The notes beneath the pieces are model-generated. The model saw only the letters and a list, made by a program, of their open reading frames with translations. It made no database searches and was not told the origin of the DNA. Shown piece by piece: positions 1,740 through 44,394 of a stretch of DNA of 64,000 nt. The translations under genes were made by a program, and so were the position numbers. Positions within the stretch are counted from its first letter, which is position 1; each line of letters starts with the position of its first letter. The DNA is from an uncultured bacterium (GTDB lineage Bacteria; Patescibacteriota; Minisyncoccia; Phycocordibacterales; GWA1-40-21), in assembly GCA_963798465.1 (NCBI GenBank), contig CAWCTC010000001.1, forward strand, positions 196,315 to 260,314. Reading direction: 5' to 3'.

Positions 1740-2528
1740 ATGAAATATCTTGGAATAGATTATGGAGAAAAAAGGGTCGGAATAGCGATTTCCGATGAAG
1801 AAGGAAGAGTTGCTTTTCCGAAAACTGTTTTGGAAAATAATCCTAATCTCAAATCTCACATTTTGGATTTGTGCAAAGAGCACAATGTAGAAGCTATTGT
1901 CATCGGCGAATCGAAAAATTATAAAGGTGAGGACAATAAAATAAATCCGGAGATAATTTTTTTCAAAAGGGAATTGGGCGCTGAGCTGAAAATGCCGATT
2001 TCTCTAGAACCGGAATTCATGACTTCCATGCAAGTCGAGAAAAATTTTGGAAAGACAGACATGCTCGATGCTTCTGCAGCTTCAATAATTTTGCAGACTT
2101 TTATGGATAAGGAAAAAAATAGGAAAGAAAAAATTCAGAAGCAGAAAACTGAGGAAGAAAAGAAAAATGTCATTGCGAGCGACACGAAGCAAACCAATAA
2201 TAAAATCAATTATGATGATTTCAAAAAAATAGAAATGAAAATCGGAAAGATACTTTCTGCGGAACCTGTTGACGGCTCGGACAAGCTTTACAAACTTTCT
2301 GTCGATTTTGCCGAAGGCGAACCAAGGCAGATTATTTCCGGAATTGCCAAGTTTTTTCCAGATTCAAAAATCCTTGTTGGAAAAAAAGTCGCGTTCGTGA
2401 CGAATCTTGAACCAAAACCTCTCATGGGAATGCAAAGCAATGGAATGATACTCGCCGTCAAATCCGAAGAAAACCTTGCACTTTTGGAAGTTCCTGATTT
2501 CATAAAAGAAGGATCGGCTTTGAGTTAA
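1740..2528 (+). CDS. ruvX: RuvX/YqgF-type putative pre-16S rRNA nuclease fused to a C-terminal tRNA-binding (CsaA/Trbp111/MetRS-C-like) domain
   Basis: The N-terminus (MKYLGIDYGEKRVGIAISD...DASAASIILQTFMD) is the YqgF pattern. The C-terminus (KIEMKIGKILSAEPVDGSDKLYKLSVDFAEGEPRQIISGIA...NLEPKPLMGMQSNGMILA) is the tRNA_bind pattern. Confidence 0.75.
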   Translation: MKYLGIDYGEKRVGIAISDEEGRVAFPKTVLENNPNLKSHILDLCKEHNVEAIVIGESKNYKGEDNKINPEIIFFKRELGAELKMPISLEPEFMTSMQVEKNFGKTDMLDASAASIILQTFMDKEKNRKEKIQKQKTEEEKKNVIASDTKQTNNKINYDDFKKIEMKIGKILSAEPVDGSDKLYKLSVDFAEGEPRQIISGIAKFFPDSKILVGKKVAFVTNLEPKPLMGMQSNGMILAVKSEENLALLEVPDFIKEGSALS

Positions 2529-5982: not shown

Positions 5983-6019
5983 CAAAATTAAAAAACGCTG
6001 AAAGGCGTTTTTTAATTTT

Positions 6020-6065
6020 GTGCCCCTGAGGAAGTGCTCAGACGCACTTCCGTGCAGGAATCGAA
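6020..6065 (+). repeat. tRNA-Arg 3'-half mirror module
   Basis: GTGCCCCTG is the reverse complement of the tRNA acceptor 3' strand. It is followed by A + 22-nt hairpin GGAAGTGC-TCAGAC-GCACTTCC + GT. GCAGGAATCGAA is then the reverse complement of the T-loop and T-stem 3' strand. Confidence 0.8.
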
Positions 6066-6145
6066 AAACCTTGAGTATATTTTTGAGCTTTTACTAAAGT
6101 GAAAAAATACGAATGGTTGAAATGCGAATACATGTAGCATTTCAA

Positions 6146-6207
6146 AGACGGAGACTGACGAGTCGAGTCGGGGTCGAGCAAATTTTCAGTAGAAAATTAT
6201 GCGTGAC
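6146..6207 (+). repeat. GC-rich box (AGACGGAG...GTCGAG) plus 25-nt box TTTTCAGTAGAAAATTATGCGTGAC
   Basis: The 25-nt box matches 49192-49216 at 24/25 positions. The GC-rich box resembles 49107-49136, 17604-17640 and the box inside the tRNA-His units. Confidence 0.7.
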
Positions 6208-6373
6208 TACAGCTCCTGTAAGGAGAGATAAGTGTACTCACGGTCCTGCCAAGGGCACACGCATGTGAGACAGACCGAGAGGCTTAAATCCTCGCTTTTT
6301 TGGCGTTGAAAAAAACAACCCCGAAAGGAATCGAACCGAGAAATATTTTAACTATATTTTTCAATGTATCCCG

Positions 6374-7915
6374 CTAGTGAGACCGAGAGGGTTCGATTCC
6401 TATTAAGCGCACAAAATGTTTCTCATTATCTGTAAACTCAGATTTTAGCTTGTAAACTATGCTTAGTTCTGCGGTTTTAAACCCCGGATATGTGTATTCA
6501 ATATTTCTAGGAAAAATCAGCTCTCTTAAAACCCTTAGGTCTTTCACATCTAGGTTTTTCCACTCTTTAGGAAGATGTTTAAGAAAGTCTAAACTAGAGT
6601 CAATGACATTTTCTAATTCAAGTTCTGGAATGAAGATTTCATTAATAGCTTTTTCATGTTCATAAATATCAAATTTTATTTTTTCATTAGCTTCTGTAAA
6701 ATCTTCATCAGATATTTTTCCAGCCAATCTCAAATCAAGCAGTTTTTCTTTTTTATCTTTTCTCTCTAGTATTTTAGATTCAAAACCTGCTTTTGTTGCA
6801 GTTGTAGACTGGAGTTCCTGCTTATGAGCTATCTTAATTGTTTCTTTTAAGACTTCAAATAGATTATCATCAGGAGTTACATCTTTAAGAAGAGAGGTAA
6901 AGTCATTTTCAAAGATTTCCTTATTTATGGAAGTTCTTTTACCACACTCATAGCAATAGCAACTATAATAATGGTAGTATTTACCTCTACCTTTACTTTT
7001 TCCACCACTAATACTTCTACCACAGCCACCACACCTCACCCCTCTCAAAGGATACATGGGATTATCAATGTTCCTTGGAAATTTTTTACTAGCAGATTTA
7101 TTTCTTGCAGATTGAGCTTCAATAAACAACTTCTCACTAATGATTGGTTCATGATTGCCTTTAATAGATATTTCAAATTTGGGAGAAATAATCCATCCAT
7201 AATATACTGGGTTTTTAATTATGTTAGCTACAAGCTGTTTATAGAATTTTATTCCACGGCGACTTTTTAAACCAGTTTTGTTAACTTTTTTTGCCAATTC
7301 TTTAAAAGTATATTTACCTGTAGCATATTCCTCAAAAAGCATTTTAATAATAGGTGCTCTTTCTGGGTGAGGAATTATTATTTTGTTGCCAAGTCTATCT
7401 ATAGTATTTACATAGCCCCAAGGAGCTTTTGAATTGACATAACCTTTAAGAGTTCTGGCTTTCATACCATCAAAAGTTCTTTGTGATTTTACATTATTAT
7501 CAAATTCCGCAAATGAAATAAGCATATTTTCATATAGCTTACCAGCCGGAGTATCTTCAATATTTTCAGTGGCAGAAACTAAAGTAATACCCATTTTGTT
7601 TAAAGAATATTTGAGATATGGATAATCAAACGAAGATCTAGAAAGTCTGTCCACTTTGTAGAAAATAATAATTCCAATTTTATTTTTATTTTTTTCACAG
7701 TATCTCAACATCAATTGGAGTTGAGTTCTGTTTGCAGTTTTAGCACTCTCTCCTTCTTCTCTGAATATCTCTAAAACTTCATATCCATGCTTCAGTGCAT
7801 ATTCTCTACAAGTTTTTTCTTGGCTTCCCAAACTAAAATTTAGGATCTGCTCTTTTGAAGAAACCCTTACGTAAACCAAAGCATTCTTTGGTTTTATTTT
7901 ATTTATATTTTTCAT
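6374..7915 (-). CDS. large serine recombinase (resolvase catalytic domain + recombinase domain + zinc ribbon)
   Basis: ALVYVRVSSKEQ catalytic motif, YKVDRLSRS, Cys-rich CGGCGRSISGG...YYSCYCYECGK, and a C-terminal coiled-coil region. Confidence 0.85.
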   Translation of the reverse strand: MKNINKIKPKNALVYVRVSSKEQILNFSLGSQEKTCREYALKHGYEVLEIFREEGESAKTANRTQLQLMLRYCEKNKNKIGIIIFYKVDRLSRSSFDYPYLKYSLNKMGITLVSATENIEDTPAGKLYENMLISFAEFDNNVKSQRTFDGMKARTLKGYVNSKAPWGYVNTIDRLGNKIIIPHPERAPIIKMLFEEYATGKYTFKELAKKVNKTGLKSRRGIKFYKQLVANIIKNPVYYGWIISPKFEISIKGNHEPIISEKLFIEAQSARNKSASKKFPRNIDNPMYPLRGVRCGGCGRSISGGKSKGRGKYYHYYSCYCYECGKRTSINKEIFENDFTSLLKDVTPDDNLFEVLKETIKIAHKQELQSTTATKAGFESKILERKDKKEKLLDLRLAGKISDEDFTEANEKIKFDIYEHEKAINEIFIPELELENVIDSSLDFLKHLPKEWKNLDVKDLRVLRELIFPRNIEYTYPGFKTAELSIVYKLKSEFTDNEKHFVRLIGIEPSRSH

Positions 7916-7973
7916 AATATTTGTTTTTATAATTAAACCTCCTTTCCTTTAAAAAGAAAAGGAGTTAATCAAG

Positions 7974-8303
7974 TTAATAAATTGCTATCAGTTCTATTCC
8001 GTAATCTTTAATCATCTTTTCTATCCTCTGAAGCTCATCTGGTATTACCGATATTTTGCTCTTATCATTTACGATAAAAGCTCTTATATTTTCTTTATAG
8101 TCATTGCAATACCTTAAAGCTTCTCTCAAATAATATCTGTCACTTACTTTGGTAGCCACGGTATTCTCTCTGAAGATTTTAACTGTACATCCCAATTTCT
8201 TTGCTCTGTTTTTACAGAAGAGTTCCTGTAAAACTGCTTTTCTACATTCACCCTTAACATACGCCCGAGAACTGATAAAAATAACCACGATGTTTTTTTT
8301 CAT
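7974..8303 (-). CDS. small resolvase-catalytic-domain-like protein (degenerate, no DNA-binding domain)
   Basis: 109 aa, with the layout IVVIFISSRAY...LREALRYC...IRAFIVNDKSKIS...GIELIAI, which resembles a serine-recombinase N-terminal domain. It lies directly upstream of the large recombinase. Confidence 0.4.
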   Translation of the reverse strand: MKKNIVVIFISSRAYVKGECRKAVLQELFCKNRAKKLGCTVKIFRENTVATKVSDRYYLREALRYCNDYKENIRAFIVNDKSKISVIPDELQRIEKMIKDYGIELIAIY

Positions 8304-8341
8304 ATTTTTAATTGTTAATTTTGTTTGTAAAGCTTCCCTTT

Positions 8342-8365
8342 ACAGGGAAACAAAGGTTTCCCTGT
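8342..8365. promoter_or_regulatory. 24-bp perfect palindrome ACAGGGAAAC-AAAG-GTTTCCCTGT upstream of the recombinase operon
   Basis: Read directly. It lies ~40 nt upstream (minus-strand sense) of the 8303 start codon. Confidence 0.4.
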
Positions 8366-9480
8366 TATCTAGTTTGTATCCTTGTCCTTATGTTGTTTTG
8401 CCTTTTCTAGAGGCTCTTTTCTTAGCGAGTCCAACCAAAAAGACACTGAGATTGTATAAATGCTCAGCCTTTTTGTTTATTTCTTCTTCTCCTAAATTCC
8501 TAAAATGCAGAGAAAGTAGCTTTGCTATTTTCTCCAAATTTCCAGTATTATTTAACACTTTATTGAGGAGTTAGTGTTTTTACCATTTTTAGGAATAAAA
8601 AAACTAACTACCAAAATTAAAAGCACATCTCTATTTTAAAAAGAGATTTGCATTTAACTTTAAGAGCTAGTTTTATAACAATATTGTTTCTTTTTAATCT
8701 ATGGTTTGGACGAGGTCCAAAACGCAGTAATTTCTGTAAAAATACAATATTATCATCAGCAACACTTTGAACTTATGGGTTCTCGGATGTACGAAGTCAT
8801 GACACGGCCTGTCATTATTTATCCCCTAGAATTTGGGGTTTATGGCTTATAAATCTTGCAATGAACACTTTTCTGCACACAGAGTAATCCCAACTGAAAG
8901 AAATGTCAAATAAATTTAGCAATCAATCTGTGTTTAAACTGTGGAAAGAAAAATGGTCAATTTTCGTATGTAATTATTTGCGAAACTAGTTGAAAAACTA
9001 ACTAAAATTAATATTTGATATTTCAAATACACATACTGTAGCTGAATGTTTTCTAGAAATGATACAAAATATTTTTCAACTAGTTTAGCAAACATTTCTT
9101 TACCATTTATAAAGTAATTTATTTACAATTTTTACCCACTAAAAGACTAAAAAGCATCCCTTTTATTGAGACGTATATTTCAAAAATACCCTTGCATTAA
9201 AAATTCTATTTTCAATTAAATACAATTAAACAATGTTTTAGTCTTTAATTCAAAATAGTGCACTTGGAACAACATAGTCATTGTGATACTATTTCATTAC
9301 AACTTAATACGAAAGTAGCCTAAACTTGATGTAAATCAAGCATGGTGAAAATGAAGTCCCAGAAAGACATAAAAAACCCATCATATGGGGTTGTCTTTCT
9401 GGGCTATATTGGGAAACCAGTATAAACAGCTTTTGCTGTTAACCATGTGGTGGGCTTTTTGTGTACATAAAATATAAATA

Positions 9481-9942
9481 ATGAATCCAGCAGAAGAAAT
9501 AGTAAAATTTTGGCTTCAAGAAAATGGATATTTTCTTCAGTCTTCAATAAGACTAGCTCATAATAAAGAGATAGATATTTTAGCGGTAAATACTGAGAAG
9601 AAAGAAAAATTACACATTGAAGTTTCAGTATCAGTCAGAATGGCTAATTATGATAGAAATCCAAGTGAATTAGCAGAAGAATTTTATCAAAGGAAATTTA
9701 TAGCAGTTGAGAATGATGTAGCGAAAGCTTTTGGAGAGAAGTATAGTAAAAATCTAGTGGTTGGAAATGTTTCTTTTAAGAATAAAGATATCTTGAAAGA
9801 ATTTATTAAGGAATGTGAGAAAAGAGATATAAAGGTGATAACAATAAAAGAGATTTTAGATGTTATCAGACCAAAACTTTCCACTCACACATATTTGAAT
9901 GCTGTAATTAAAACCATTCAGATAGCAAAGGAGTTTAAGTAA
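9481..9942 (+). CDS. hypothetical protein with YraN/Hjc-like PD-(D/E)xK nuclease-fold signature
   Basis: AEEIVKFWLQENGYFLQSSIRLAHNKEIDILAV...LHIEVSVS resembles the GE..a..L...G..il..N.....EiDiia....vfvEVK pattern, but the Lys is replaced. Confidence 0.35.
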   Translation: MNPAEEIVKFWLQENGYFLQSSIRLAHNKEIDILAVNTEKKEKLHIEVSVSVRMANYDRNPSELAEEFYQRKFIAVENDVAKAFGEKYSKNLVVGNVSFKNKDILKEFIKECEKRDIKVITIKEILDVIRPKLSTHTYLNAVIKTIQIAKEFK

Positions 9943-9967
9943 ATTTTATTAGTTAATAAACAAAAAC

Positions 9968-10258
9968 ATGGAAATAATTGGATTAATAGAAATAATAATA
10001 GGATTGGGAATATATTTTATTCCTACATTTGTAGCATATGATAGAAAAATGAAGAATAAAGAAAGTGTATTGTGGTTGAATTTACTTTTGGGGTGGACAT
10101 TTATTGGTTGGGTTGTAGCATTAATTTGGTCATTGATAAAATCCGAGTCAAATGAATCAAAGATTACTCTTGAAAGTGAACTGAAAAAATGTCCTAAGTG
10201 TGCAGAATTAATAAAAAAAGAGGCTACTAAGTGTAAACATTGTGGATCTGAATTATAA
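9968..10258 (+). CDS. superinfection-immunity-like membrane protein with C-terminal zinc ribbon
   Basis: YFIPTFVAYDRK...LNLLLGWTFIGWVVALIWSL matches the Imm_superinfect pattern. The C-terminus carries CPKC...CKHCG. Confidence 0.55.
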   Translation: MEIIGLIEIIIGLGIYFIPTFVAYDRKMKNKESVLWLNLLLGWTFIGWVVALIWSLIKSESNESKITLESELKKCPKCAELIKKEATKCKHCGSEL

Positions 10259-10271
10259 TTTTTAAAAAAAT

Positions 10272-10541
10272 ATGAAAAAACAAAAATACATATTGGAAAA
10301 ATTATATCAAGATTTTAGAAATGCTCTTGCAGAATGGATTGTTGCAAAAACAAAAGCAAGAATTAAAGATGGATTTTATGATTTAAATGATATATTTAAA
10401 AAAATAGAATGGATTGAGAAGTATGATAAGAAAAACAAAAAGATGTTAGATAAGGTTAATAAAACTGAAGAAAAGTTTTTAAATAAAATAAATCCCAAGT
10501 TTTTTAAAAGCTATCTTCAATATTTAAAGGAGGAATATTAG
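10272..10541 (+). CDS. hypothetical protein
   Basis: Listed 89-aa ORF, Lys/Glu-rich, tightly spaced after the previous gene. Confidence 0.35.
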   Translation: MKKQKYILEKLYQDFRNALAEWIVAKTKARIKDGFYDLNDIFKKIEWIEKYDKKNKKMLDKVNKTEEKFLNKINPKFFKSYLQYLKEEY

Positions 10542-10547
10542 ATTTAG

Positions 10548-10940
10548 TTAATCCTGAAAAAACTTAACTATATTACCTACAAAAAGTGATAGTAGACCAT
10601 AGCCAGCCAAAGTTAACCCATAAAGTGTCTGTGGTGTATTTAAATCAATTCCACCATGTTGAGAAGCACTATTTCCAGCCCAAGCCAAACCACCAAAAAT
10701 TGCACACCATGAAAAAAATATAATCCATCTGCCAGTTTTTTTCTTTTTCTCTCCATGAGAAATAACCACTTTATTGGTATTAATACCCATGATTGCAACT
10801 ATAACTGCAACAATTACACCTCCTATTATTGTGCTTATTAAATTACTCATATTGAGTTGTAGTTTAAACAATATAATCAAAAAGTAAAGTAAGACAAAAT
10901 TTAGCACACGTTTTATTGGGCAGATAAAGTTAATATTCAC
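10548..10940 (-). CDS. hypothetical membrane protein (true start possibly Met-31 at 10850)
   Basis: Listed ORF with three to four hydrophobic helices. Confidence 0.4.
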   Translation of the reverse strand: MNINFICPIKRVLNFVLLYFLIILFKLQLNMSNLISTIIGGVIVAVIVAIMGINTNKVVISHGEKKKKTGRWIIFFSWCAIFGGLAWAGNSASQHGGIDLNTPQTLYGLTLAGYGLLSLFVGNIVKFFQD

Positions 10941-10974
10941 AAAGTTATAATTTTATGGTACAGTATAAAAACTT

Positions 10975-12150
10975 ATGACCATAGAAGAAGAAATAACACC
11001 AAGTGATTTTAGAGAGGTTCCTTACGGCGAAAGTAAGATTTTTTTTGATAAAAAATATGTTTTTCATGAACATTTTCAACATAAGAAAAAAACACGCAGA
11101 TTTCCTTATTGCAAAAATATTCTTGCCTTTATATCTGAAAATCCAGGATTAAATATTTATTTTACTTTGGATGAAAAAATAAAACCATTTAAGAAGATTA
11201 AAGATGGCTATCTTATAAATATTGATTCATATATGACATTTTGTGAGGCTATCCAAAGTAGAACTACTGGAAGAGCCAAGGCTTTTCTAAGTCAAAATCT
11301 TAATTTAAAAGACATCAGTGCGACAAAAAAAGATAAAGAAGAATATATTAAAGCAAACGCTGATGAAAAAATTCTTTTAGAAGCCTGTAAAAATCTTGAT
11401 CCTGAGTCTAAAAAAAATATAACTGATGCTTTAAATCAATTACAACCTGCCAATCAAAATGATGAGACTAAAAGACAAGATATAAAAAGCGAGGAGTTTA
11501 TTTTATTGTTTTCTAAATTTCTTTCCGATAAAGACGTCCAGCTAGCTATTATTCAAAATACTCCTAAAATTCAGATTCAAATTCTTAAAGCACATGTTTC
11601 TTTTCTTAAAGAAAATTTAGATAAGAATGAAACATTTATTCAAAATTGGATTGATGAAGATGATGGAAAGTATAGAAAACAAAGATGTCTTATTTTTGGA
11701 ATAGATTATGTAGATCCAAAACGAGAGGGGAGATTGTCTGGTAAAAAATTTGATGTTCTAGCAGAACAAAACAGAGATAACCACGTAATTATTGAATTAA
11801 AATCTCCGAATGCGGATGTATTTGACATTGAATTAAAACCAAATGCTAATGGTGGAGAAGTTGAAGAATTTAGAATCTCTAAAGAATTAGCTAGAGCTAT
11901 ACCGCAAGTACTTGGATATAAAAAATGGTATGGAGGCGCAACCACTGAAGAAATAAAAGAGCTTGGTCTGAAAGAAAAGAAAAATATATCACGTTGTATT
12001 ATTGTTATTGGACAAACTAAAGAATCAGAAGTTTGGAAAGAAAATCTAAATTGTTTAAGAAGCAGCTTATCTTCAATAGACGTATATACTTACACTGATT
12101 TAATACATAAGTTAGAAAATACAATTAAAAATCTTGAGGAAAATCTATAG
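10975..12150 (+). CDS. Shedu-like (DUF4263-type) PD-(D/E)xK nuclease, putative anti-phage effector
   Basis: The C-terminal half (ETFIQNWI...KFDVLAEQNRDNHVIIELKSPNADVF...AIPQVLGYKKWY...CIIVIGQTKE...IDVYTYTDLIHKLENTI) follows the DUF4263 order of motifs. Confidence 0.55.
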   Translation: MTIEEEITPSDFREVPYGESKIFFDKKYVFHEHFQHKKKTRRFPYCKNILAFISENPGLNIYFTLDEKIKPFKKIKDGYLINIDSYMTFCEAIQSRTTGRAKAFLSQNLNLKDISATKKDKEEYIKANADEKILLEACKNLDPESKKNITDALNQLQPANQNDETKRQDIKSEEFILLFSKFLSDKDVQLAIIQNTPKIQIQILKAHVSFLKENLDKNETFIQNWIDEDDGKYRKQRCLIFGIDYVDPKREGRLSGKKFDVLAEQNRDNHVIIELKSPNADVFDIELKPNANGGEVEEFRISKELARAIPQVLGYKKWYGGATTEEIKELGLKEKKNISRCIIVIGQTKESEVWKENLNCLRSSLSSIDVYTYTDLIHKLENTIKNLEENL

Positions 12151-12159
12151 TTAAAAATT

Positions 12160-13467
12160 ATGATAAATATTTGTAAATCACCACTAGATACAGCATATAA
12201 TCGTTTAGATGAAGCACATAGATCTTGGCACAATGCATTAAGCGGTTATCATAAAATAAATGATTTTCGTGCTGGTATAAATAGTGCGATTCAAGCACTT
12301 AGAAATCTAACTTTTGCAATACAAAAACAAAAAGATAATTTGCCGAACTTTGATAATTGGTATGCAGGCTGGCAATCAAAGATGAAAAATGATCCTATTC
12401 TTAAAGAACTTCACGATGCTAGAAACATTATTGTTAAAGAAGAGGATTTAATTTTATATAGTACTGCCAAAGCAACCACAAAAGGTTGGATGGATTTTGA
12501 AAAGACAGCGTTCACCTTTGATCCTTTACAAGATAGTTACACTGTTGCAAAGGATTTTTATGATACATATGCAAAATATTTACCTATAGCAGAAGATCTT
12601 AAAAAAAGATTAATATTTGAGTTTGAAAGAAAATGGGTTTATGAAAAAATACCAGATTATGAATTGTTAGATGCGATTTCTCATTCATATAATTTTCTCT
12701 ATGAAATACTTAAAGATGCAGAAGAAAAATTTTCTTTGCCCATAAAAGAAAATAATAGTACAGGAGATTATTGTACGAATGAATTAAATGACAAAAATAA
12801 ATTAAAATGTATGATAATTACATCACAAGAACGTTGTTTAAAATTTAGTTTTGAAAACGGAGCTTCCCTTGAAATGAAAACAGAAAAAATTTTATTAAAA
12901 GAAAGTGATTTAGATGTTGCACATAAAAGATATGGTGACAAATGGAAATCAGATGAGACACTAGCTTTACTTGAAGGTCTTTTTGCAGATGAATATCCAT
13001 TTAATCAAATGAAACTGTTTTCTCAAGTTGCTGTTGCTGCTCTAAAAAAAGATAAACATCTTATTCCAGTATCTTTCCTTTTTAAAATAAATGATAAAAG
13101 GCCAATGATTATATCTGGTGAATTTCAAAACCAGGAGCATAAAATAATGGTTATGGATAATATTGCTTCAGAAATTGTAAAAAATAATATTAAGTTTGTA
13201 CTTACAATAGCAGAAATTTGGAGATACGATTATGATGAAAAAAACCCACATTTTTTCCCAACAGGAGAACAAAGTGGTAGAGCTAAAGAAGCAATTGAAA
13301 TTGCCTGTTTATCTACTAATAAAATTAAGTTAATTGCGATACCATTCAAAAAGAATATTTTTGGAAAAATTATTTATTCAAAACCAGAGGTAATAAAAGA
13401 ATCTTCCACTGATAATTACCCACCTTCTATTTTTTCACCTATTATTAATGCATTGAGAAGTAATTGA
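12160..13467 (+). CDS. hypothetical 435-aa protein, likely co-transcribed with the Shedu-like gene
   Basis: Listed ORF, 9-nt gap from the previous stop. I recognise no family. Confidence 0.45.
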   Translation: MINICKSPLDTAYNRLDEAHRSWHNALSGYHKINDFRAGINSAIQALRNLTFAIQKQKDNLPNFDNWYAGWQSKMKNDPILKELHDARNIIVKEEDLILYSTAKATTKGWMDFEKTAFTFDPLQDSYTVAKDFYDTYAKYLPIAEDLKKRLIFEFERKWVYEKIPDYELLDAISHSYNFLYEILKDAEEKFSLPIKENNSTGDYCTNELNDKNKLKCMIITSQERCLKFSFENGASLEMKTEKILLKESDLDVAHKRYGDKWKSDETLALLEGLFADEYPFNQMKLFSQVAVAALKKDKHLIPVSFLFKINDKRPMIISGEFQNQEHKIMVMDNIASEIVKNNIKFVLTIAEIWRYDYDEKNPHFFPTGEQSGRAKEAIEIACLSTNKIKLIAIPFKKNIFGKIIYSKPEVIKESSTDNYPPSIFSPIINALRSN

Positions 13468-13761
13468 TTATTTTTTACCAAACTCATCAGGAGATTTCTT
13501 TTCAAGATACCACATTGAAACTTTTACATCACCACGTTGAATAGCGTCAACAATATTAAACTTGGCTGTCATGTTTGGGTACAATTTTAATTGTTGTTTT
13601 CTAACTGCGAAATCAGGATTATTAACCTGGTATCTATAAAGAGCATCTGTTGAAATGGCAGCTAATAAACAAGCTTCTTTGTCAGTACAGCACATTGCGT
13701 ATGCTTCTTCTAATTTCGCAAGTACCTTTTCAGTTATAGTTGATGTTCTACCAGCTTTCAT
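13468..13761 (-). CDS. phage-type HTH DNA-binding protein (terminase-small-subunit-like)
   Basis: GRTSTITEKVLAKLEEAYAMCCTDKEACLLAAISTDALYRYQVNNPDFA...MWYLEKKSPDEF is a pattern common in small phage HTH/terminase small subunits. Confidence 0.4.
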   Translation of the reverse strand: MKAGRTSTITEKVLAKLEEAYAMCCTDKEACLLAAISTDALYRYQVNNPDFAVRKQQLKLYPNMTAKFNIVDAIQRGDVKVSMWYLEKKSPDEFGKK

Positions 13762-13975
13762 ATTAATTAGATTTTAATATCATTAAGCGATAACTTCTCA
13801 ACATCATTTGTTGAAGAATATGTCCAAATCTGAGGTTTTTCAATATTCTTTATAATCTTAGAAAGGTTACAAAGAAATTCAATCAATGGTTTTGAATCTA
13901 GGCTCGTTAGGGGCACATGCATGTGAGACCTATCGAGAGGCTTAAATGTTGAATTTTTTTAGTTATTGAGAGAGA

Positions 13976-17100: not shown

Positions 17101-17434
17101 TTATCCAGTCATTCTAACATTTATTTTGAAACTCAGAAATCTAAAAATTCAGAATTTATGATGGGGTAATTTTTAACTAACCCGCACCTTTTTGTTATTC
17201 ATCACTACCTTACTCCTCAAGTATTACTCAGTATGCACAATAAATTTGCTTTAAAATAAATTAAAAAAATCCTCTGTAAAATTTCAGGGGATTTTTTATT
17301 GTTTGTTTTACTTCGATTATTTAAAAATTATTTTTTATTTGTTTTTTCCATTTTTTAATGTAATATAACTTTGCAAGGGCGCTTAGCTGTTTTGGCTAAC
17401 ATGCAAGTTTACAAGTTTTGAAAGTTTAATGTTT

Positions 17435-17508
17435 GGGCGCTTAGCTCAGTTGGTTAGAGCACCTCATTTACACTGAGGGGGTCAGGGGTTCGAATCCCTT
17501 AGCGCCCA
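17435..17508 (+). tRNA. tRNA-Val (anticodon TAC)
   Basis: Manual cloverleaf: GGGCGCT/AGCGCCC acceptor, GCTC..GAGC D stem, anticodon loop TTTACAC, T arm AGGGG-TTCGAAT-CCCTT. No CCA. Confidence 0.85.
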
Positions 17509-17539
17509 CAAATAAAATCTGCGACAGCAGATTTTTTGA

Positions 17540-17584
17540 TGGGCGCTAGCACGCAAATTGCTTTGCGTGCGTAAGGGATTCGAA
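17540..17584 (+). repeat. tRNA-Val 3'-half mirror module
   Basis: TGGGCGCT is the reverse complement of the acceptor 3' strand. It is followed by A + 22-nt hairpin GCACGCAAA-TTGC-TTTGCGTGC + GT. AAGGGATTCGAA is then the reverse complement of the T-loop and T-stem 3' strand. Confidence 0.8.
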
Positions 17585-17702
17585 AGACTTTTCCGTGTCG
17601 AGTGAAACGAGACGGAAAAGTACCCGCGACGGTCGTCGAGAATCCCTGAGTTGTTTAAATAGCAGTTATCTCAAATCTATGCTAAATTATTAAAATAAAT
17701 TT

Positions 17703-18429
17703 ATGAAAATTCCCATCCTCTACGAAGACAAAGATGTTGTCGTTATAAACAAGCCAGCTGGGCTTGTCGTCCATTCTGATGGAAAAACCAAGGAAAAAAC
17801 TTTGGTTGATTGGATTTTGAAAAAATATCCGAAGACAAAAAATGTCGGCGAGCCAATCATTTTGGATGACGGGACAAAAATATTAAGACCGGGAATTGTC
17901 CACAGAATTGATAGAGATACTACCGGCACTTTGATAATCGCAAAAAACAAAGAAGCTTTTGAATTTCTGAAAGAACAATTCAAAGACAGAAAAGTTCACA
18001 AAATTTATCAAGCTTTTGTTTACGGAGATTTGAAAGAGGAAAGAGGAATGATAGATCGACCTATCGGAAGAAGTACAAATGATTTCCGAAAATGGACTGC
18101 ACAGAGAGGAGTGCGTGGAGAAAGACGAGAAGCTGTAACATATTTCAAAGTTTTAGATAAAAAGGGCGATATAACTTTTGTCGAAGCCATGCCAAAAACC
18201 GGAAGAACTCATCAGATTAGAGTTCATTTAAGTGCAATCAATCATCCGATTATTCAGGATAAACTTTATGCGACGGATTTTTTTTGAAGAAAAAACAGCA
18301 GCTTGGATTCAAAAGGATGGCACTTCATGCAAGAGAATTGGAAATAGAACTTCCTTCGGGAAAATTGCTTGAATAGTAGCTCCGTATCCTGAAGATTTTG
18401 AGGAAGCTATAAAAAAAATAATGAAATAA
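17703..18429 (+). CDS. RluA/RluD-family pseudouridine synthase, reading frame interrupted twice as sequenced
   Basis: [15 protein letters not shown] and GRTHQIRVH motifs. The C-terminal part continues in other frames (..[23 protein letters not shown], then [18 protein letters not shown]). Breaks are at the T8 run 18278-18285 and near 18372. Confidence 0.7.
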
Positions 18430-18454
18430 AATCGGTTGTCAAAAATTATTTAAT

Positions 18455-18994: not shown

Positions 18995-19678
18995 ATGGTG
19001 AAAAGGGGACCAAAACCAAGAAGTAAAGTAAAAATAAAATGGTCTGCAAATTTTGCTTATGCAATCGGGCTTATTGCAACAGATGGCAATTTATCTCCCG
19101 ACGGCAGACATATATCATTTACTTCAAAAGATATTGAACAAATCAATAATTATCAAAAAGCATTAAAAATTAGTTGCAGTATAGGAAAAAAAAGTAATGG
19201 TTTTGTTAAAGAAAAAAAATATTATGTAGTACAGTTTAGCGATATTTTTTTCTATCAATTTTTAGAATCTATTGGAATAACTCGTGCAAAATCAAAAACT
19301 CTGGGTAAAATAGATGTTCCATCAAAATATTTTTTTGATTTTTTACGAGGCTCATTTGATGGCGATGGTACATTTTATTCATATTGGGATAAAAGATGGA
19401 AATCTAGTTTCATGTTTTATTTGGAATTTATATCAGCGAGTAAAAAACATATCTTATGGATAAGATCTGAGATTGAAAAGAGATTAAAGATTAGAGGACA
19501 TATAACTAATGATGGCAGTAAAAAAACGTTACAATTAAAATATGCCAAAAGAGAATCGCTGGAAATTATTAAAAGAATGTACTACAATCAAACGGTTGTT
19601 TGTTTATCCCGCAAGCGTATTAAAATTATCAAAGTTTTAAAGATTGAACATAATCAGCAAAAGAGGTATGAGTTTTGA
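18995..19678 (+). CDS. free-standing LAGLIDADG-family homing endonuclease
   Basis: Two LAGLIDADG-type motifs: AIGLIATDGNL and FLRGSFDGDGTF. Confidence 0.75.
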   Translation: MVKRGPKPRSKVKIKWSANFAYAIGLIATDGNLSPDGRHISFTSKDIEQINNYQKALKISCSIGKKSNGFVKEKKYYVVQFSDIFFYQFLESIGITRAKSKTLGKIDVPSKYFFDFLRGSFDGDGTFYSYWDKRWKSSFMFYLEFISASKKHILWIRSEIEKRLKIRGHITNDGSKKTLQLKYAKRESLEIIKRMYYNQTVVCLSRKRIKIIKVLKIEHNQQKRYEF

Positions 19679-21340: not shown

Positions 21341-21342
21341 CA

Positions 21343-21906
21343 AATGAAAAAGCGGCGTTAAGCCGTCTTTTTCATTTGGGTGGCTAAGCAAGCAAACTGC
21401 TTTGCTTGCGTTCGGGAGTTGAACAGCGGAATGATGTTTTTTCAGCAGGAAAAACGAATGAGCTGGTGCCCAGACAAAGCTGAGTGACGACGAAGCTTTA
21501 GTCGAGGGAAACATCCCCGATAGCCACCCAAATGAAAAAGCGGCGTTAAGCCGTCTTTTTCATTTGGGTGGCTAAGCAAGCAAACTGCTTTGCTTGCGTT
21601 CGGGAGTTGAACAGCGGAATGATGTTTTTTCAGCAGGAAAAACGAATGAGCTGGTGCCCAGACAAAGCTGAGTGACGACGAAGCTTTAGTCGAGGGAAAC
21701 ATCCCCGATAGCCACCCAAATGAAAAAGCGGCGTTAAGCCGTCTTTTTCATTTGGGTGGCTAAGCAAGCAAACTGCTTTGCTTGCGTTCGGGAGTTGAAC
21801 AGCGGAATGATGTTTTTTCAGCAGGAAAAACGAATGAGCTGGTGCCCAGACAAAGCTGAGTGACGACGAGATGAGAGGCGAGGGAAACATCCCCGATAGC
21901 CACCCA
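21343..21906 (+). repeat. three head-to-tail 188-bp units (21343-21530, 21531-21718, 21719-21906), each ending in the last 15-16 nt of tRNA-His
   Basis: Read directly. Units 1 and 2 look identical, and unit 3 differs in a 9-nt patch at 21870-21878. The overlapping minus-strand ORFs in the track repeat the same peptide, confirming the period. Confidence 0.9.
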
Positions 21907-43682: not shown

Positions 43683-44394
43683 GGGGTCAGGAGCCTTTTT
43701 ATGATATACTCTATTCATGCCAAGAAATATTAGAGTAGATATTGCAGGAGAAATATATCATATAATAAATCGTGCAAATGCACGGATGAAGATTTTTGAT
43801 AATGATAAAGATTACAAACTATTTGAACAAGTATTAGAAGAAGCAAAGGATCGTACAGACATAAAAATATATGCATATTGTGTAATGCCAAATCACTGGC
43901 ATTTAGTTGTATCACCAAAAAATGATGGCAATCTATCAAAATTTATGGCTTGGTTCACTATGACACATACCCAAAGATGGCACTCAATGCACAAAAGTAT
44001 AGGAAGTGGTCATTTGTATCAAGGAAGATACAAATCATTTATTGTTCAAAGTAATGAATATTTTTTACAACTATGCAGATATGTGGAAAGAAATCCAGTA
44101 AGAGCAAAATTAGAAAAGAAAGCGCAAGGTTGGAAATGGGGAAGTCTATGGAGAAGAGAAAATGGAACTATAGAACAACTTAAAATTCTAAATTCATGGC
44201 CAACGGACACACCAAAAAACTATCTTGGTTGGGTAAATGAATCTGAATCAATAGAAGCACTCAGTCTAATTCGAAATAGTGTGAATAAAGGTAAACCCTA
44301 TGGTAAAATGTCGTGGATAGAAAAGAAAATTGATGAGTATAAACTTGAATCAACATTACGCAGTCCTGGAAGACCAAAGAAAGGCTCCTGACCC
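43683..44394 (+). mobile_element. RayT unit bracketed by 12-bp inverted repeats (GGGTCAGGAGCC ... GGCTCCTGACCC)
   Basis: Left repeat within 43683-43695, right repeat 44383-44394, which overlaps the stop codon. Confidence 0.6.
43717..44391 (+). CDS. REP-associated tyrosine transposase (RayT / IS200-like Y1 HUH transposase)
   Basis: YHIINRAN..., HUH motif MPNHWHLVV, catalytic-Tyr region LCRYVERNPVRA. Confidence 0.8.
   Translation: MPRNIRVDIAGEIYHIINRANARMKIFDNDKDYKLFEQVLEEAKDRTDIKIYAYCVMPNHWHLVVSPKNDGNLSKFMAWFTMTHTQRWHSMHKSIGSGHLYQGRYKSFIVQSNEYFLQLCRYVERNPVRAKLEKKAQGWKWGSLWRRENGTIEQLKILNSWPTDTPKNYLGWVNESESIEALSLIRNSVNKGKPYGKMSWIEKKIDEYKLESTLRSPGRPKKGS

What the first reader, a model, noticed from the sequence alone, without database searches (positions are those of the whole stretch)
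17487..17650. Mirror module downstream of tRNA-Val with a covarying 22-nt hairpin
TGGGCGCT (17540-17547) is followed by A + GCACGCAAA-TTGC-TTTGCGTGC + GT and then AAGGGATTCGAA (17573-17584). Together these mirror the last 20 nt of tRNA-Val, with the same 25-nt insertion point.

The hairpin is the same as the His version except at paired positions 4 and 19 (C:G here, A:T at His) and one loop base. That is a compensatory change supporting a conserved stem.

Downstream there is a further hairpin (CTTTTCCGT...ACGGAAAAG) and a GC-rich box CGCGACGGTCGTCGAG, followed by GAATCCCT, which can pair with AGGGATTC. Unlike Arg and His, no clean direct copy of the acceptor 3' strand closes the module.
Basis: seen in the sequence. 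Interest (0 to 1): 0.75.

Follow-up and report, generated by a model that had tools for sequence, protein, structure and literature searches.

The report
tRNA-end homing mini-element with mirror guide
The segment after tRNA-Val is one copy of a widespread, previously uncatalogued family of tiny protein-less insertion elements that sit at the 3' end of tRNA and tmRNA genes in ultra-small bacteria and carry a split antisense copy of the tRNA's last 20 bases around a conserved hairpin, which looks like a built-in address label.

Summary
17540-17584 is the reverse complement of tRNA-Val positions 66-73 and 54-65, split by A + a 22-nt hairpin (P2) + GT. The same layout follows tRNA-Arg and tRNA-His.

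It is not a decayed duplicate. A pattern scan found P2 in at least 119 species-level genomes, mainly Patescibacteria and Elusimicrobiota. It lies almost always just 3' of a same-strand tRNA or tmRNA. The arms match the cognate tRNA, and 8 of 9 P2 pairs covary. No Rfam family, phage, plasmid or paper matches.

Close relatives of this genome have the tRNA-His site empty, or hold a different module type. Units occur in tandem and are bounded by a ~20-nt repeat of the tRNA 3' end. No protein gene is linked to them.

Best reading: a 120-250 bp non-autonomous insertion element made of a terminator hairpin, a mirror guide with P2, a covarying core and a terminal tRNA-end copy. The arm-target three-way junction spans the element boundary and probably directs homing by an unknown enzyme acting in trans. 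Whether it acts as ssDNA or as RNA is unresolved. The Val copy lacks the acceptor part of its terminal repeat.

The parts
17435..17508 (+). tRNA-Val(TAC); positions 54-73 (17489-17508) are the sequence mirrored by the module
   Evidence: ARAGORN; Rfam RF00005, 72.8 bits
17509..17539 (+). H: terminator-type hairpin (AAAATCTGC-GACA-GCAGATTTT + TT) with partly paired A/T flanks. It forms the top of helix P1.
   Evidence: Sequence and fold. The equivalent hairpins of the His units are called terminator-like. The empty tRNA-His sites of relatives lack such a hairpin.
17540..17547 (+). P1' arm, TGGGCGCT: the reverse complement of the acceptor 3' strand plus A73
   Evidence: arms match the cognate tRNA
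17548..17572 (+). Invariant A + P2 hairpin (17549-17570) + GT
   Evidence: A1, G24 and T25 are invariant in 21 variants and 8 of 9 pairs covary; the insertion is 25 nt long in 57/77 cases
17573..17584 (+). P3' arm, AAGGGATTCGAA: the reverse complement of the T-stem 3' strand plus the T loop (positions 65-54)
   Evidence: The perfect run reaches T54/G53 in 34/59 modules. The arm is AAGGG, Watson-Crick to CCCTT, and not the tRNA's own AGGGG.
17585..17639 (+). Core of the 'Val type': J3/4 (UCG)AAAG, P4 hairpin 17587-17621, ACCCG, and P5 hairpin CGAC-GGTC-GTCG at 17627-17638
   Evidence: Alignment A1 of 12 modules from different tRNAs and genomes; P4 covaries
17640..17647 (+). GAATCCCT: a partial terminal copy of the tRNA T loop and T-stem 3' strand. 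The acceptor part is missing, so this copy is 3'-truncated.
   Evidence: complete terminal repeats occur in 66 other elements
5984..6259 (+). Sister element after tRNA-Arg(TCT): H 5984-6020, P1' 6021-6028, A 6029, P2 (a different sequence, GGAAGTGC-TCAGAC-GCACTTCC) 6030-6051, GT, P3' 6054-6065, a larger core, and a terminal copy CCTGCCAaGGGCACA at 6245-6259
21342..21905 (+). Three tandem 188-nt elements after tRNA-His(GTG). First unit: P1' 21377-21386, A, P2 21388-21409, GT, P3' 21412-21423. Each unit ends with CCCGATAGCCACCCA.
   Evidence: (D2); the site is empty in relatives L123-L125, whose flank is homologous to the window's flank

Best explanation
The segment 17509-17647 is one copy of a family of small (about 120-250 bp), protein-less insertion elements that home to the 3' end of tRNA and tmRNA genes.

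Each element has four parts:
1. A hairpin H, usually an intrinsic-terminator type, which now ends the tRNA transcription unit.
2. A split antisense of the tRNA: arm P1' pairs with positions 66-73 and arm P3' with positions 65-54, on either side of an invariant A-[22-nt hairpin P2]-GU.
3. A covarying core of two hairpins. Several interchangeable core types exist.
4. A direct copy of tRNA positions ~56-73 at the right end.

On the tRNA-sense strand, the arms pair either with the tRNA 3' end or with the element's own terminal copy. This gives a three-way junction, and one of its helices runs across the element/target boundary.

Shown: the family, its structure, the cognate complementarity of the arms, the terminal repeats, the tandem arrays, and presence/absence and type turnover at orthologous tRNAs.

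Inferred: the arms are a guide that aligns the target end and the element's own right end (the same sequence) for cutting and joining by an enzyme supplied in trans. This follows the logic of the guide-next-to-hairpin ends of IS200/IS605 single-strand transposons. P2 would be the enzyme's handle. Whether the active form is single-stranded DNA or RNA is not resolved. The Val copy has lost the acceptor half of its right-end repeat and is probably immobile.
For: **Family and context**
- P2 was found in at least 119 genome stretches.
- 100 of 128 instances have a same-strand tRNA just upstream, covering 38 anticodon classes. Two follow tmRNA genes, and their arms match the tmRNA's unusual T loop.

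**Structure**
- P2 covaries and P4 covaries.
- The tRNA-sense strand folds 7.1 kcal/mol better than the opposite strand, in 98 of 119 cases, p = 2e-16.
- The Val fold has z = -10.8.

**Arms**
- The arms are cognate-specific.
- At tRNA G·U positions, the arms are Watson-Crick to the 3' strand in 23 of 25 cases. They are therefore a mirror of that strand and not a copy of the tRNA 5' half.
- The split lies at 64/65 or 65/66 in 56 of 59 modules.

**Mobility**
- tRNA-His is empty in L123, L124 and L125. The flank that follows the tRNA there (TTTCCAATCTACTCT) follows the 3-unit array in the window.
- In relatives with 85-88% identical RluA, the same tRNA carries a different core or P2 type, a truncated copy, or nothing.
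- 66 elements are bounded by a repeat of T3+acceptor+N73 that extends 4-6 nt into the T loop and 1-3 nt past N73.
- tRNAs carrying an element encode CCA in 2 of 61 cases, against 24 of 153 for tRNAs without one. In 5 loci CCA follows the distal copy while the tRNA lacks it.
- Tandem and nested arrays occur.

**Guide logic**
- In a 'shifted' subtype, the 11-nt arm pairs with only the last 4-7 nt of the target plus the element's own first nucleotides. The right end then repeats only 2-6 nt of the target. Repeat length therefore tracks arm-target pairing.

**No linked gene**
- There is no ORF inside any element.
- No neighbouring protein family recurs in more than 8 of 119 loci.
Against: - No transposase or recombinase is linked, so mobility rests on comparative patterns only. 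No excised or circular form was observed.
- There is a single conserved hairpin per unit, unlike the two ends of IS200/IS605.
- The boundary lies on helix P1 in the common type and on P3 in the shifted type, which argues against a simple fixed geometry.
- Proximal copies are conserved across Elusimicrobia species while a distal partial copy decays. This suggests selection at fixed loci, which fits a host-useful RNA as well.
- The complex conserved core is more than a simple recombination site needs.
- With a terminator ahead of the module, an RNA form would be poorly expressed in the window's copies. In about a third of loci there is no terminator, and co-transcription is then expected.
- How the arms become matched to about 40 different tRNAs is unexplained. 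Lineage-specific elements combined with core exchange is only a conjecture.
Confidence: 0.5

Rival explanations
1. Host-useful structured small RNA derived from tRNA 3' trailers (3'-ETS-like or tRNA-top-half mimic). The module is co-transcribed with the tRNA. Its arms pair with the terminal copy to give an acceptor/T-stem-like stack with P2 in place of the D and anticodon arms. It is then released by RNase P, RNase Z or RNase III and acts in the cell. Arrays arise by local duplication.
For: - The sense strand folds into a closed three-way junction with good z-scores (-4.7 to -6.4).
- About a third of loci lack a terminator between the tRNA and the module (d <= 35 nt).
- Proximal copies are conserved in four to six Elusimicrobia species while a neighbouring partial duplicate decays.
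- P2 is identical across phyla.
- The core junction sequences are conserved.
Against: - Presence/absence varies and different types occupy the same tRNA in close relatives.
- The arms pair N73 and continue into H, so there is no free discriminator/CCA-like end.
- The arms mirror the 3' strand and do not imitate the tRNA 5' strand.
- All three loci in the window have a terminator in front of the module.
- No covariance model of the tRNA clan matches.
- The Val copy cannot close its acceptor-like helix.
Confidence: 0.2
2. Miniature integrative element moved by a host tyrosine (Xer/integron-like) recombinase. The single-stranded form folds so that the tRNA-end copy and its mirror make a duplex imitation of the tRNA-gene att site, with P2 as an extrahelical branch. 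This would resemble integron attC or CTX-phage attP(+). Crossover would occur in or near the T loop, and the element would supply the new tRNA 3' end and a terminator.
For: - The identity block of about 20 nt running from the T loop to the tRNA end is typical of tRNA-targeting integrases.
- tmRNA genes are also targets.
- Tandem arrays occur.
- In tRNA-His, the filled alleles have T60, matching the arm. The empty alleles, and the window's distal copies, have C60.
- A Xer-like ORF family occurs in 6 of 119 loci.
Against: - No integrase is consistently nearby.
- In L124 tRNA-Arg, the distal copy rather than the tRNA matches the arms.
- The shifted subtype shares only 2-6 nt with its target.
- This model does not explain the conserved core.
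Confidence: 0.15
3. Cis-acting device for tRNA transcription or maturation. It would provide a strong terminator plus a clamp that captures the tRNA 3' half in read-through transcripts, for example by creating a long perfect helix for RNase III and so insulating downstream genes.
For: - The minimum-energy fold of a tRNA-Val + module co-transcript sequesters positions 54-73 (-103.9 kcal/mol).
- P1 plus H is a perfect helix of 20-30 bp in many loci.
- The H hairpins look like terminators.
Against: - Only some tRNAs carry it, and orthologous sites can be empty.
- Tandem copies and terminal repeats have no role in this model.
- The conserved P2 and core are unexplained.
Confidence: 0.1
4. Decayed inverted duplication of the tRNA gene with chance insertions.
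For: The arms are an inverted copy of the tRNA end.
Against: The same A-hairpin-GT insertion occurs at the same tRNA position in at least 119 genomes, with covariation, and the cores are conserved.
Confidence: 0.01

Closest known systems
IS200/IS605-family single-strand transposons and their gene-less derivatives (PATEs; REP/BIME with RAYT)
   Same: - A conserved subterminal hairpin with adjacent nucleotides that base-pair with the cleavage sites.
- Strand-specific insertion directly 3' of a defined sequence.
- The right end carries its own copy of the recognised sequence.
- Gene-less copies are mobilised in trans.
   Different: - The guide here is 8 + 12 nt of Watson-Crick pairing split around the hairpin, not about 4 nt.
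- There is one hairpin per unit.
- A large covarying core is present.
- No Y1/HUH gene is linked. The window's only Y1_Tnp ORF has its own unrelated inverted repeats.
- The target is a tRNA or tmRNA end.
IS110/IS1111 bridge (seek) RNAs
   Same: A structured non-coding segment of about 150-200 nt in which two guide stretches flank a capping hairpin and specify the insertion site. One set of guides also matches the element's own junction.
   Different: - Both arms here pair with one strand as a contiguous 20-nt duplex.
- There is only one guide loop.
- No DEDD recombinase gene is adjacent.
- No sequence or Rfam similarity was found.
Integrative elements that target the 3' end of tRNA/tmRNA genes (integrase-borne islands, prophages)
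   Same: - Insertion at the tRNA or tmRNA 3' end.
- Direct repeats made of the tRNA 3' end.
- The tRNA stays intact.
- Repeated insertions give arrays.
   Different: - The element is 120-250 bp, with no integrase.
- It additionally carries an inverted, hairpin-split copy of the att sequence and a conserved structured core.
Folded single-strand recombination sites (integron attC, CTX-phage attP(+))
   Same: The site is formed by intrastrand pairing of inverted repeats with an extrahelical feature. Arrays of short units lie next to a fixed site.
   Different: There is no IntI or demonstrated Xer dependence. The stem imitates a tRNA gene end. The extrahelical feature is a whole conserved hairpin.
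Bipartite antisense guides around a hairpin (H/ACA pseudouridylation pocket; RNase P external guide sequences)
   Same: The topology matches: two antisense arms flank an internal hairpin and form a three-way junction with a continuous target strand.
   Different: No ACA/H boxes or ACCA tail are present. The target has no unpaired nucleotides. The bacterial context and the insertion-element behaviour also differ.

Membership tests
IS200/IS605 / PATE / REP-RAYT | Y1 HUH transposase (TnpA/RAYT) encoded in or next to the element | tested here: not met
   No ORF lies between the terminal repeats. No recurrent neighbouring protein was found. The Y1_Tnp ORF at 43717-44391 lies about 22-26 kb from the nearest modules and is flanked by its own repeat, GGGTCAGGAGCCTTT.
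IS200/IS605 / PATE / REP-RAYT | Conserved hairpins at both ends | tested here: not met
   There is one P2 per unit. A second P2 appears only where the next unit begins.
IS200/IS605 / PATE / REP-RAYT | Insertion 3' of a specific sequence that pairs with guide bases beside the hairpin, with the same logic at the right end | tested here: met
   The boundary lies at N73(+1). The arms are complementary both to the target and to the right-end copy. The functional role of this pairing cannot be tested here.
IS200/IS605 / PATE / REP-RAYT | Single-stranded DNA intermediate | not testable with these tools
   Only indirect evidence exists: the structure forms on the tRNA-sense strand.
IS110/IS1111 bridge RNA | Adjacent DEDD/Tnp recombinase gene | tested here: not met
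IS110/IS1111 bridge RNA | Two binding loops (target and donor) whose left and right guides pair with opposite DNA strands (this defining feature is taken from my own knowledge of the published system) | tested here: not met
   There is a single arm pair, and both arms are reverse complements of the same strand.
tRNA-targeting integrative elements | Direct repeats of the tRNA 3' end flanking the insert, with the tRNA left intact | tested here: met
tRNA-targeting integrative elements | Own integrase gene | tested here: not met
   The serine recombinase at 6374-7915 belongs to a separate 7.7-kb island.
tRNA / tRNA-like RNAs (Rfam clan CL00001, tmRNA, Y-RNA-like) | Match to a covariance model; cloverleaf-derived arms | tested here: not met
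   Nothing matched above noise at E <= 10 or at gathering score in 16 loci. The arms mirror the 3' strand in 23 of 25 G·U cases.
Known ribozymes and introns in Rfam (hammerhead, twister-sister, hatchet, HDV-like, group I/II) | Match to a family model | tested here: not met
Intrinsic terminator (component H only) | GC-containing stem-loop followed by a T run | tested here: met
   The scan flags H in all three His units. In Val the hairpin and T run are visible by eye, but the scan missed them because the A/T flanks pair.

The most novel reading that the evidence does not exclude
This is a previously undescribed class of nucleic-acid-guided, gene-less mobile elements. A split 20-nt antisense guide around a conserved hairpin recognises the 3' end of a specific tRNA or tmRNA gene and also the element's own end. 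It thereby programs excision and integration by a still unknown, possibly host-encoded, enzyme, or by the structured core itself.
Probability: 0.35. Interest if true: 0.9.

Novelty: new variant of a known kind. Interest (0 to 1): 0.8.

Why it matters
If the arms are a true guide, this would be a compact, naturally reprogrammed targeting module. One scaffold would be matched to dozens of different 20-nt tRNA ends.

The elements occur in some of the most streamlined bacterial genomes known. That would point to a new homing mechanism and a missing enzyme.

Even on the conservative reading, three things follow:
- It adds an abundant, uncatalogued structured element to Patescibacteria and Elusimicrobiota.
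- It explains many 'orphan' hairpins and tRNA-end fragments next to tRNA genes.
- It flags a source of mis-annotation and of rearrangements at tRNA loci.

Tried and rejected
- **Rfam.** The whole window at gathering score, the three loci at E <= 10, and 16 related loci gave only tRNA, tmRNA and LOOT.
- **Hammerhead.** A hammerhead reading of CTGACGAG in the Arg core was rejected by eye, because there is no proper stem II or GAAA, and by the Rfam result.
- **Minus-strand gene, or tRNA pseudogene with a T-loop insertion.** Rejected because of the strand asymmetry and the G·U test.
- **Copy of the tRNA 5' half with the middle replaced.** Rejected.
- **Primer-binding site of a retroelement.** Rejected. 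No CCA complement was apparent in the loci inspected by eye (not counted). The arms are split by P2. No reverse transcriptase was found nearby.
- **Phage or plasmid origin.** There were 0 hits in viral contigs, phage records and plasmid records.
- **Autonomous copies with an ORF.** None was found between the repeats.
- **Linked protein.** ORF clustering gave no family in more than 8 of 119 loci.
- **RAYT-like Y1 gene as the mobilising enzyme.** No support; its own inverted repeats are unrelated to P2.
- **Exact look-up of the RluA product.** Not on record.
- **Literature.** Searches by sequence and by descriptors found nothing relevant. The Patescibacteria tRNA-intron paper and the 224-motif paper do not mention the element.
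- **Palindromic protein operator or DNA-uptake sequence.** Considered and set aside. Unrelated P2 sequences keep the hairpin, and copies occur only at tRNA ends.

Full report
**What is in the window**

tRNA-Val(TAC) lies at 17435-17508. It is followed by:
- a hairpin with A- and T-rich flanks (17509-17539);
- TGGGCGCT (17540-47);
- A (17548);
- the 22-nt hairpin GCACGCAAA-TTGC-TTTGCGTGC (17549-70);
- GT (17571-72);
- AAGGGATTCGAA (17573-84).

The two arms together are a 20/20 reverse complement of tRNA positions 54-73. They are interrupted exactly at the T-stem/acceptor boundary.

The same plan follows two other tRNAs:
- tRNA-Arg has arms at 6021-28 and 6054-65, with a different 22-nt hairpin.
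- tRNA-His has three tandem 188-nt units (repeat family D2).

tRNA-Leu and tRNA-Tyr have no module.

**It is a large family, not a local accident**

The carriers are:
- many classes of Patescibacteria;
- about 15 Elusimicrobiota;
- one Omnitrophota;
- a few bins of doubtful assignment;
- one clear false positive inside a coding region (L114).

Of 128 hairpins, 100 have a same-strand tRNA just upstream, covering 38 anticodon classes. In L043 and L031 the upstream gene is tmRNA. In L043 the arms are complementary to the tmRNA's own unusual T loop.

A second search ignored the hairpin sequence and asked only for a split mirror of the tRNA end. It found 77 of 200 tRNAs, with a 25-nt insertion in 57 of the 77. 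It also revealed other P2 sequence classes, always between A and GT.

No match was found in 2.9 million viral contigs, in phage records or in plasmid records. No Rfam family matches. No paper was found by sequence or by description.

**Structure**

- *P2 positions 4:19.* They read A:T 90, C:G 15, G:C 14, T:A 5 and G:T 2, with 3 mismatches.
- *P2 as a whole.* Over 21 distinct A-P2-GT variants, 8 of 9 pairs show changes on both sides and 96.8% of cells pair. No shuffle and no slid register comes close. The flanking A, G and T are invariant.
- *Core of the Val module.* This core type recurs next to Gly, Arg, Trp, Ile, Leu, Ala, Val and Asp tRNAs in other genomes. It has conserved junctions (UCGAAAG; ACCYG) and a covarying P4. 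At least three other core types exist.
- *Strand.* The tRNA-sense strand folds better than its complement by 7.1 kcal/mol on average, in 98 of 119 cases (p = 2e-16).
- *Val fold.* From the T loop to the module end, the fold is a three-way junction with z = -10.8. P1 is the acceptor 3' strand + H + P1'. P3 is the T loop/T3 + P3'. P2 is the third helix.
- *Co-transcript.* In a tRNA + module transcript, this fold outcompetes the cloverleaf.

**What the arms are**

They are cognate-specific. They match their own tRNA at a mean of 16.6 of 20 positions, against 11.0 for other tRNAs. At least 18 of 20 match in 36/82 cognate pairs, against 3/1640 non-cognate pairs.

The split lies at 64/65 or 65/66 in 56 of 59 modules. 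Perfect P3 pairing stops at T54/G53 in 34 of 59.

Where the tRNA's own stems contain G·U pairs, the arm is Watson-Crick to the 3' strand in 23 of 25 cases. In Val it is AAGGG, not the tRNA's AGGGG. The arms are therefore a true mirror of the 3' strand and not a relic of the tRNA 5' half.

**It behaves as an insertion**

I fetched orthologous loci through RluA homologues of 85-88% identity.

tRNA-His:
- L123, L124 and L125 have nothing after tRNA-His, not even a terminator hairpin. The flank that follows the tRNA there is homologous to the flank after the window's three-unit array.
- L120 has one unit with a different P2 (ACGAGC...GCTCGT) and a different core type.
- L122 has a 5'-truncated remnant.

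tRNA-Val:
- L124 carries a module with yet another P2 (GTAAGC...GCTTAC) and core.
- L120 carries an array.
- L122 carries nothing.

tRNA-Leu(GAG) is filled in L120 and empty in the window.

Independently of P2, 66 elements are bounded by a direct copy of T3+acceptor+N73, 100-380 nt downstream. This repeat extends 4-6 nt into the tRNA-specific part of the T loop and 1-3 nt beyond N73.

The CCA pattern places one edge of the insert at N73(+1). tRNAs with an element encode CCA in 2 of 61 cases, against 24 of 153 for tRNAs without one. In 5 loci CCA follows the distal copy while the tRNA itself lacks it.

No element contains an ORF. No neighbouring protein family recurs in more than 8 of 119 loci.

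**A second subtype links repeat length to arm pairing**

In eight 'shifted' elements, the 11-nt arm pairs with only the last 4-7 nt of the tRNA end plus 3-7 nt of the element's own start. H alone forms P1 (10-11 of 11 matches). In the six with a usable right end, that end repeats only 2-6 nt of the target; L107 ends in a full tRNA-end copy and L059 is cut off.

So the terminal repeat is as long as the stretch of target that the arms can pair with. In both subtypes, a helix of the junction runs across the element/target boundary. This is the main reason to read the arms as a guide for both boundaries.

**Mechanism: what is shown and what is inferred**

Shown:
- a conserved, covarying, sense-strand structure;
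- cognate arms;
- insertion polymorphism;
- terminal repeats;
- arrays;
- no linked gene.

Inferred: the arms align '...N73|' of the target and of the element's right end for cleavage and joining by a trans-acting enzyme, and P2 is the handle. This is how guide nucleotides beside the end hairpins work in IS200/IS605 transposons (established knowledge).

Membership of that family fails, however. There is no Y1 gene, only one hairpin per unit, and far longer Watson-Crick guides.

I cannot decide between a single-stranded DNA form and an RNA form.
- For DNA: terminators stand ahead of the modules, including all three loci in the window. GNA/GAA-type mini-hairpin caps are also enriched (101 observed against 38.7 expected).
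- For RNA: the core is elaborate and conserved, and about a third of loci have no terminator.

How the arms became matched to about 40 tRNAs is open. tRNA-specific lineages with exchange of cores between elements would fit the near-identical cores seen with His arms (window) and Asp arms (L075).

**Evidence that cuts the other way**

In Elusimicrobia, the tRNA-Asn module is conserved across species (P2 identical) while an adjacent partial duplicate decays. This suggests selection at a fixed locus and keeps a host-function reading alive.

In L124 tRNA-Arg, the arms match the distal copy rather than the tRNA. In tRNA-His, the arm matches the tRNA's T60 rather than the distal C60. The exchange point within the ~20-nt repeat is therefore not fixed by these data.

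**The Val copy itself**

It has H, both arms, P2, the core and GAATCCCT, but not the acceptor part of the terminal repeat. It is therefore 3'-truncated.

Relative to rluA, the tRNA-Val + module block is inverted compared with all relatives examined. A rearrangement at this site may have removed the end.

**Verdict**

The object is an uncatalogued, widespread element at tRNA and tmRNA ends. It is best explained as a non-autonomous homing element with a built-in mirror guide. Its enzyme and its active nucleic-acid form are unknown.

Noticed in passing
window 6253-13959: A probable ~7.7-kb genomic island lies next to the tRNA-Arg module. It is flanked by 49-nt direct repeats (6253-6301 and 13911-13959, 82% identical) that begin with the tRNA-Arg end GGGCACA. 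It carries a large serine recombinase (6374-7915, minus strand), a Shedu-like SduA_C protein (10975-12150) and a LOOT RNA (9317-9440).
   Followed up: partly
window 6390-6417: A tRNA 3'-end-like fragment, GGTTCGATTCCTATTAAGCGCACAAAAT, is 82% identical to the tRNA-Arg end plus trailer. It overlaps the stop end of the serine recombinase ORF and may be an att remnant.
   Followed up: no
window 43684-44394: A RAYT/IS200-like Y1_Tnp ORF (43717-44391, 224 aa) is flanked by perfect 15-nt inverted repeats, GGGTCAGGAGCCTTT. These are the only two copies in the window. No link to the tRNA modules was found.
   Followed up: partly
window 1740-2528: An ORF fuses a RuvX/YqgF Holliday-junction-resolvase-like nuclease domain to a tRNA-binding domain (PF03652 + PF01588). 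It is an untested candidate for acting on tRNA-like junctions.
   Followed up: no
window 17703-18430: The RluA-family pseudouridine synthase gene just downstream of the Val module is broken by two frame changes near its 3' end (frames 1, 3, 2 against a 255-aa homologue). This indicates a pseudogene or an assembly error.
   Followed up: partly
window 17379-17391; L120, L122, L124: A partial copy of the tRNA-Val 5' end (GGGCGCTTAGCT) lies about 45 nt upstream of the gene, in the window and in relatives. The tRNA-Val + module block is inverted relative to rluA in the window compared with all relatives.
   Followed up: partly
window 18995-19678: An ORF with a weak LAGLIDADG-like domain hit ends 10 nt before tRNA-Leu(GAG). 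Relatives have a 223-226-aa ORF of similar size about 200 nt downstream of tRNA-Leu instead; its homology to the window ORF was not checked.
   Followed up: no
L001-L125 and window, tRNA 3' flanks: Most tRNA genes in these genomes are followed by CA directly after the discriminator (130 of 214), whether or not they carry a module. Only 26 of 214 encode a full CCA.
   Followed up: partly
module loops and linkers, e.g. window 17600-17609; L020, L029: A recurrent cap motif, GA-NN-(GAA/AAA/GNRA)-N'N'-GA (e.g. GAGCGAAGCGA, GAACGAAGTGA), closes many module helices. It also replaces the terminator as the linker between tRNA and module. It is enriched 2.6-fold over shuffles.
   Followed up: partly
L031 2057-2175: A second LOOT RNA lies about 220 nt downstream of a tmRNA-linked module in another Patescibacteria genome. 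Any relation to the modules is unknown.
   Followed up: no
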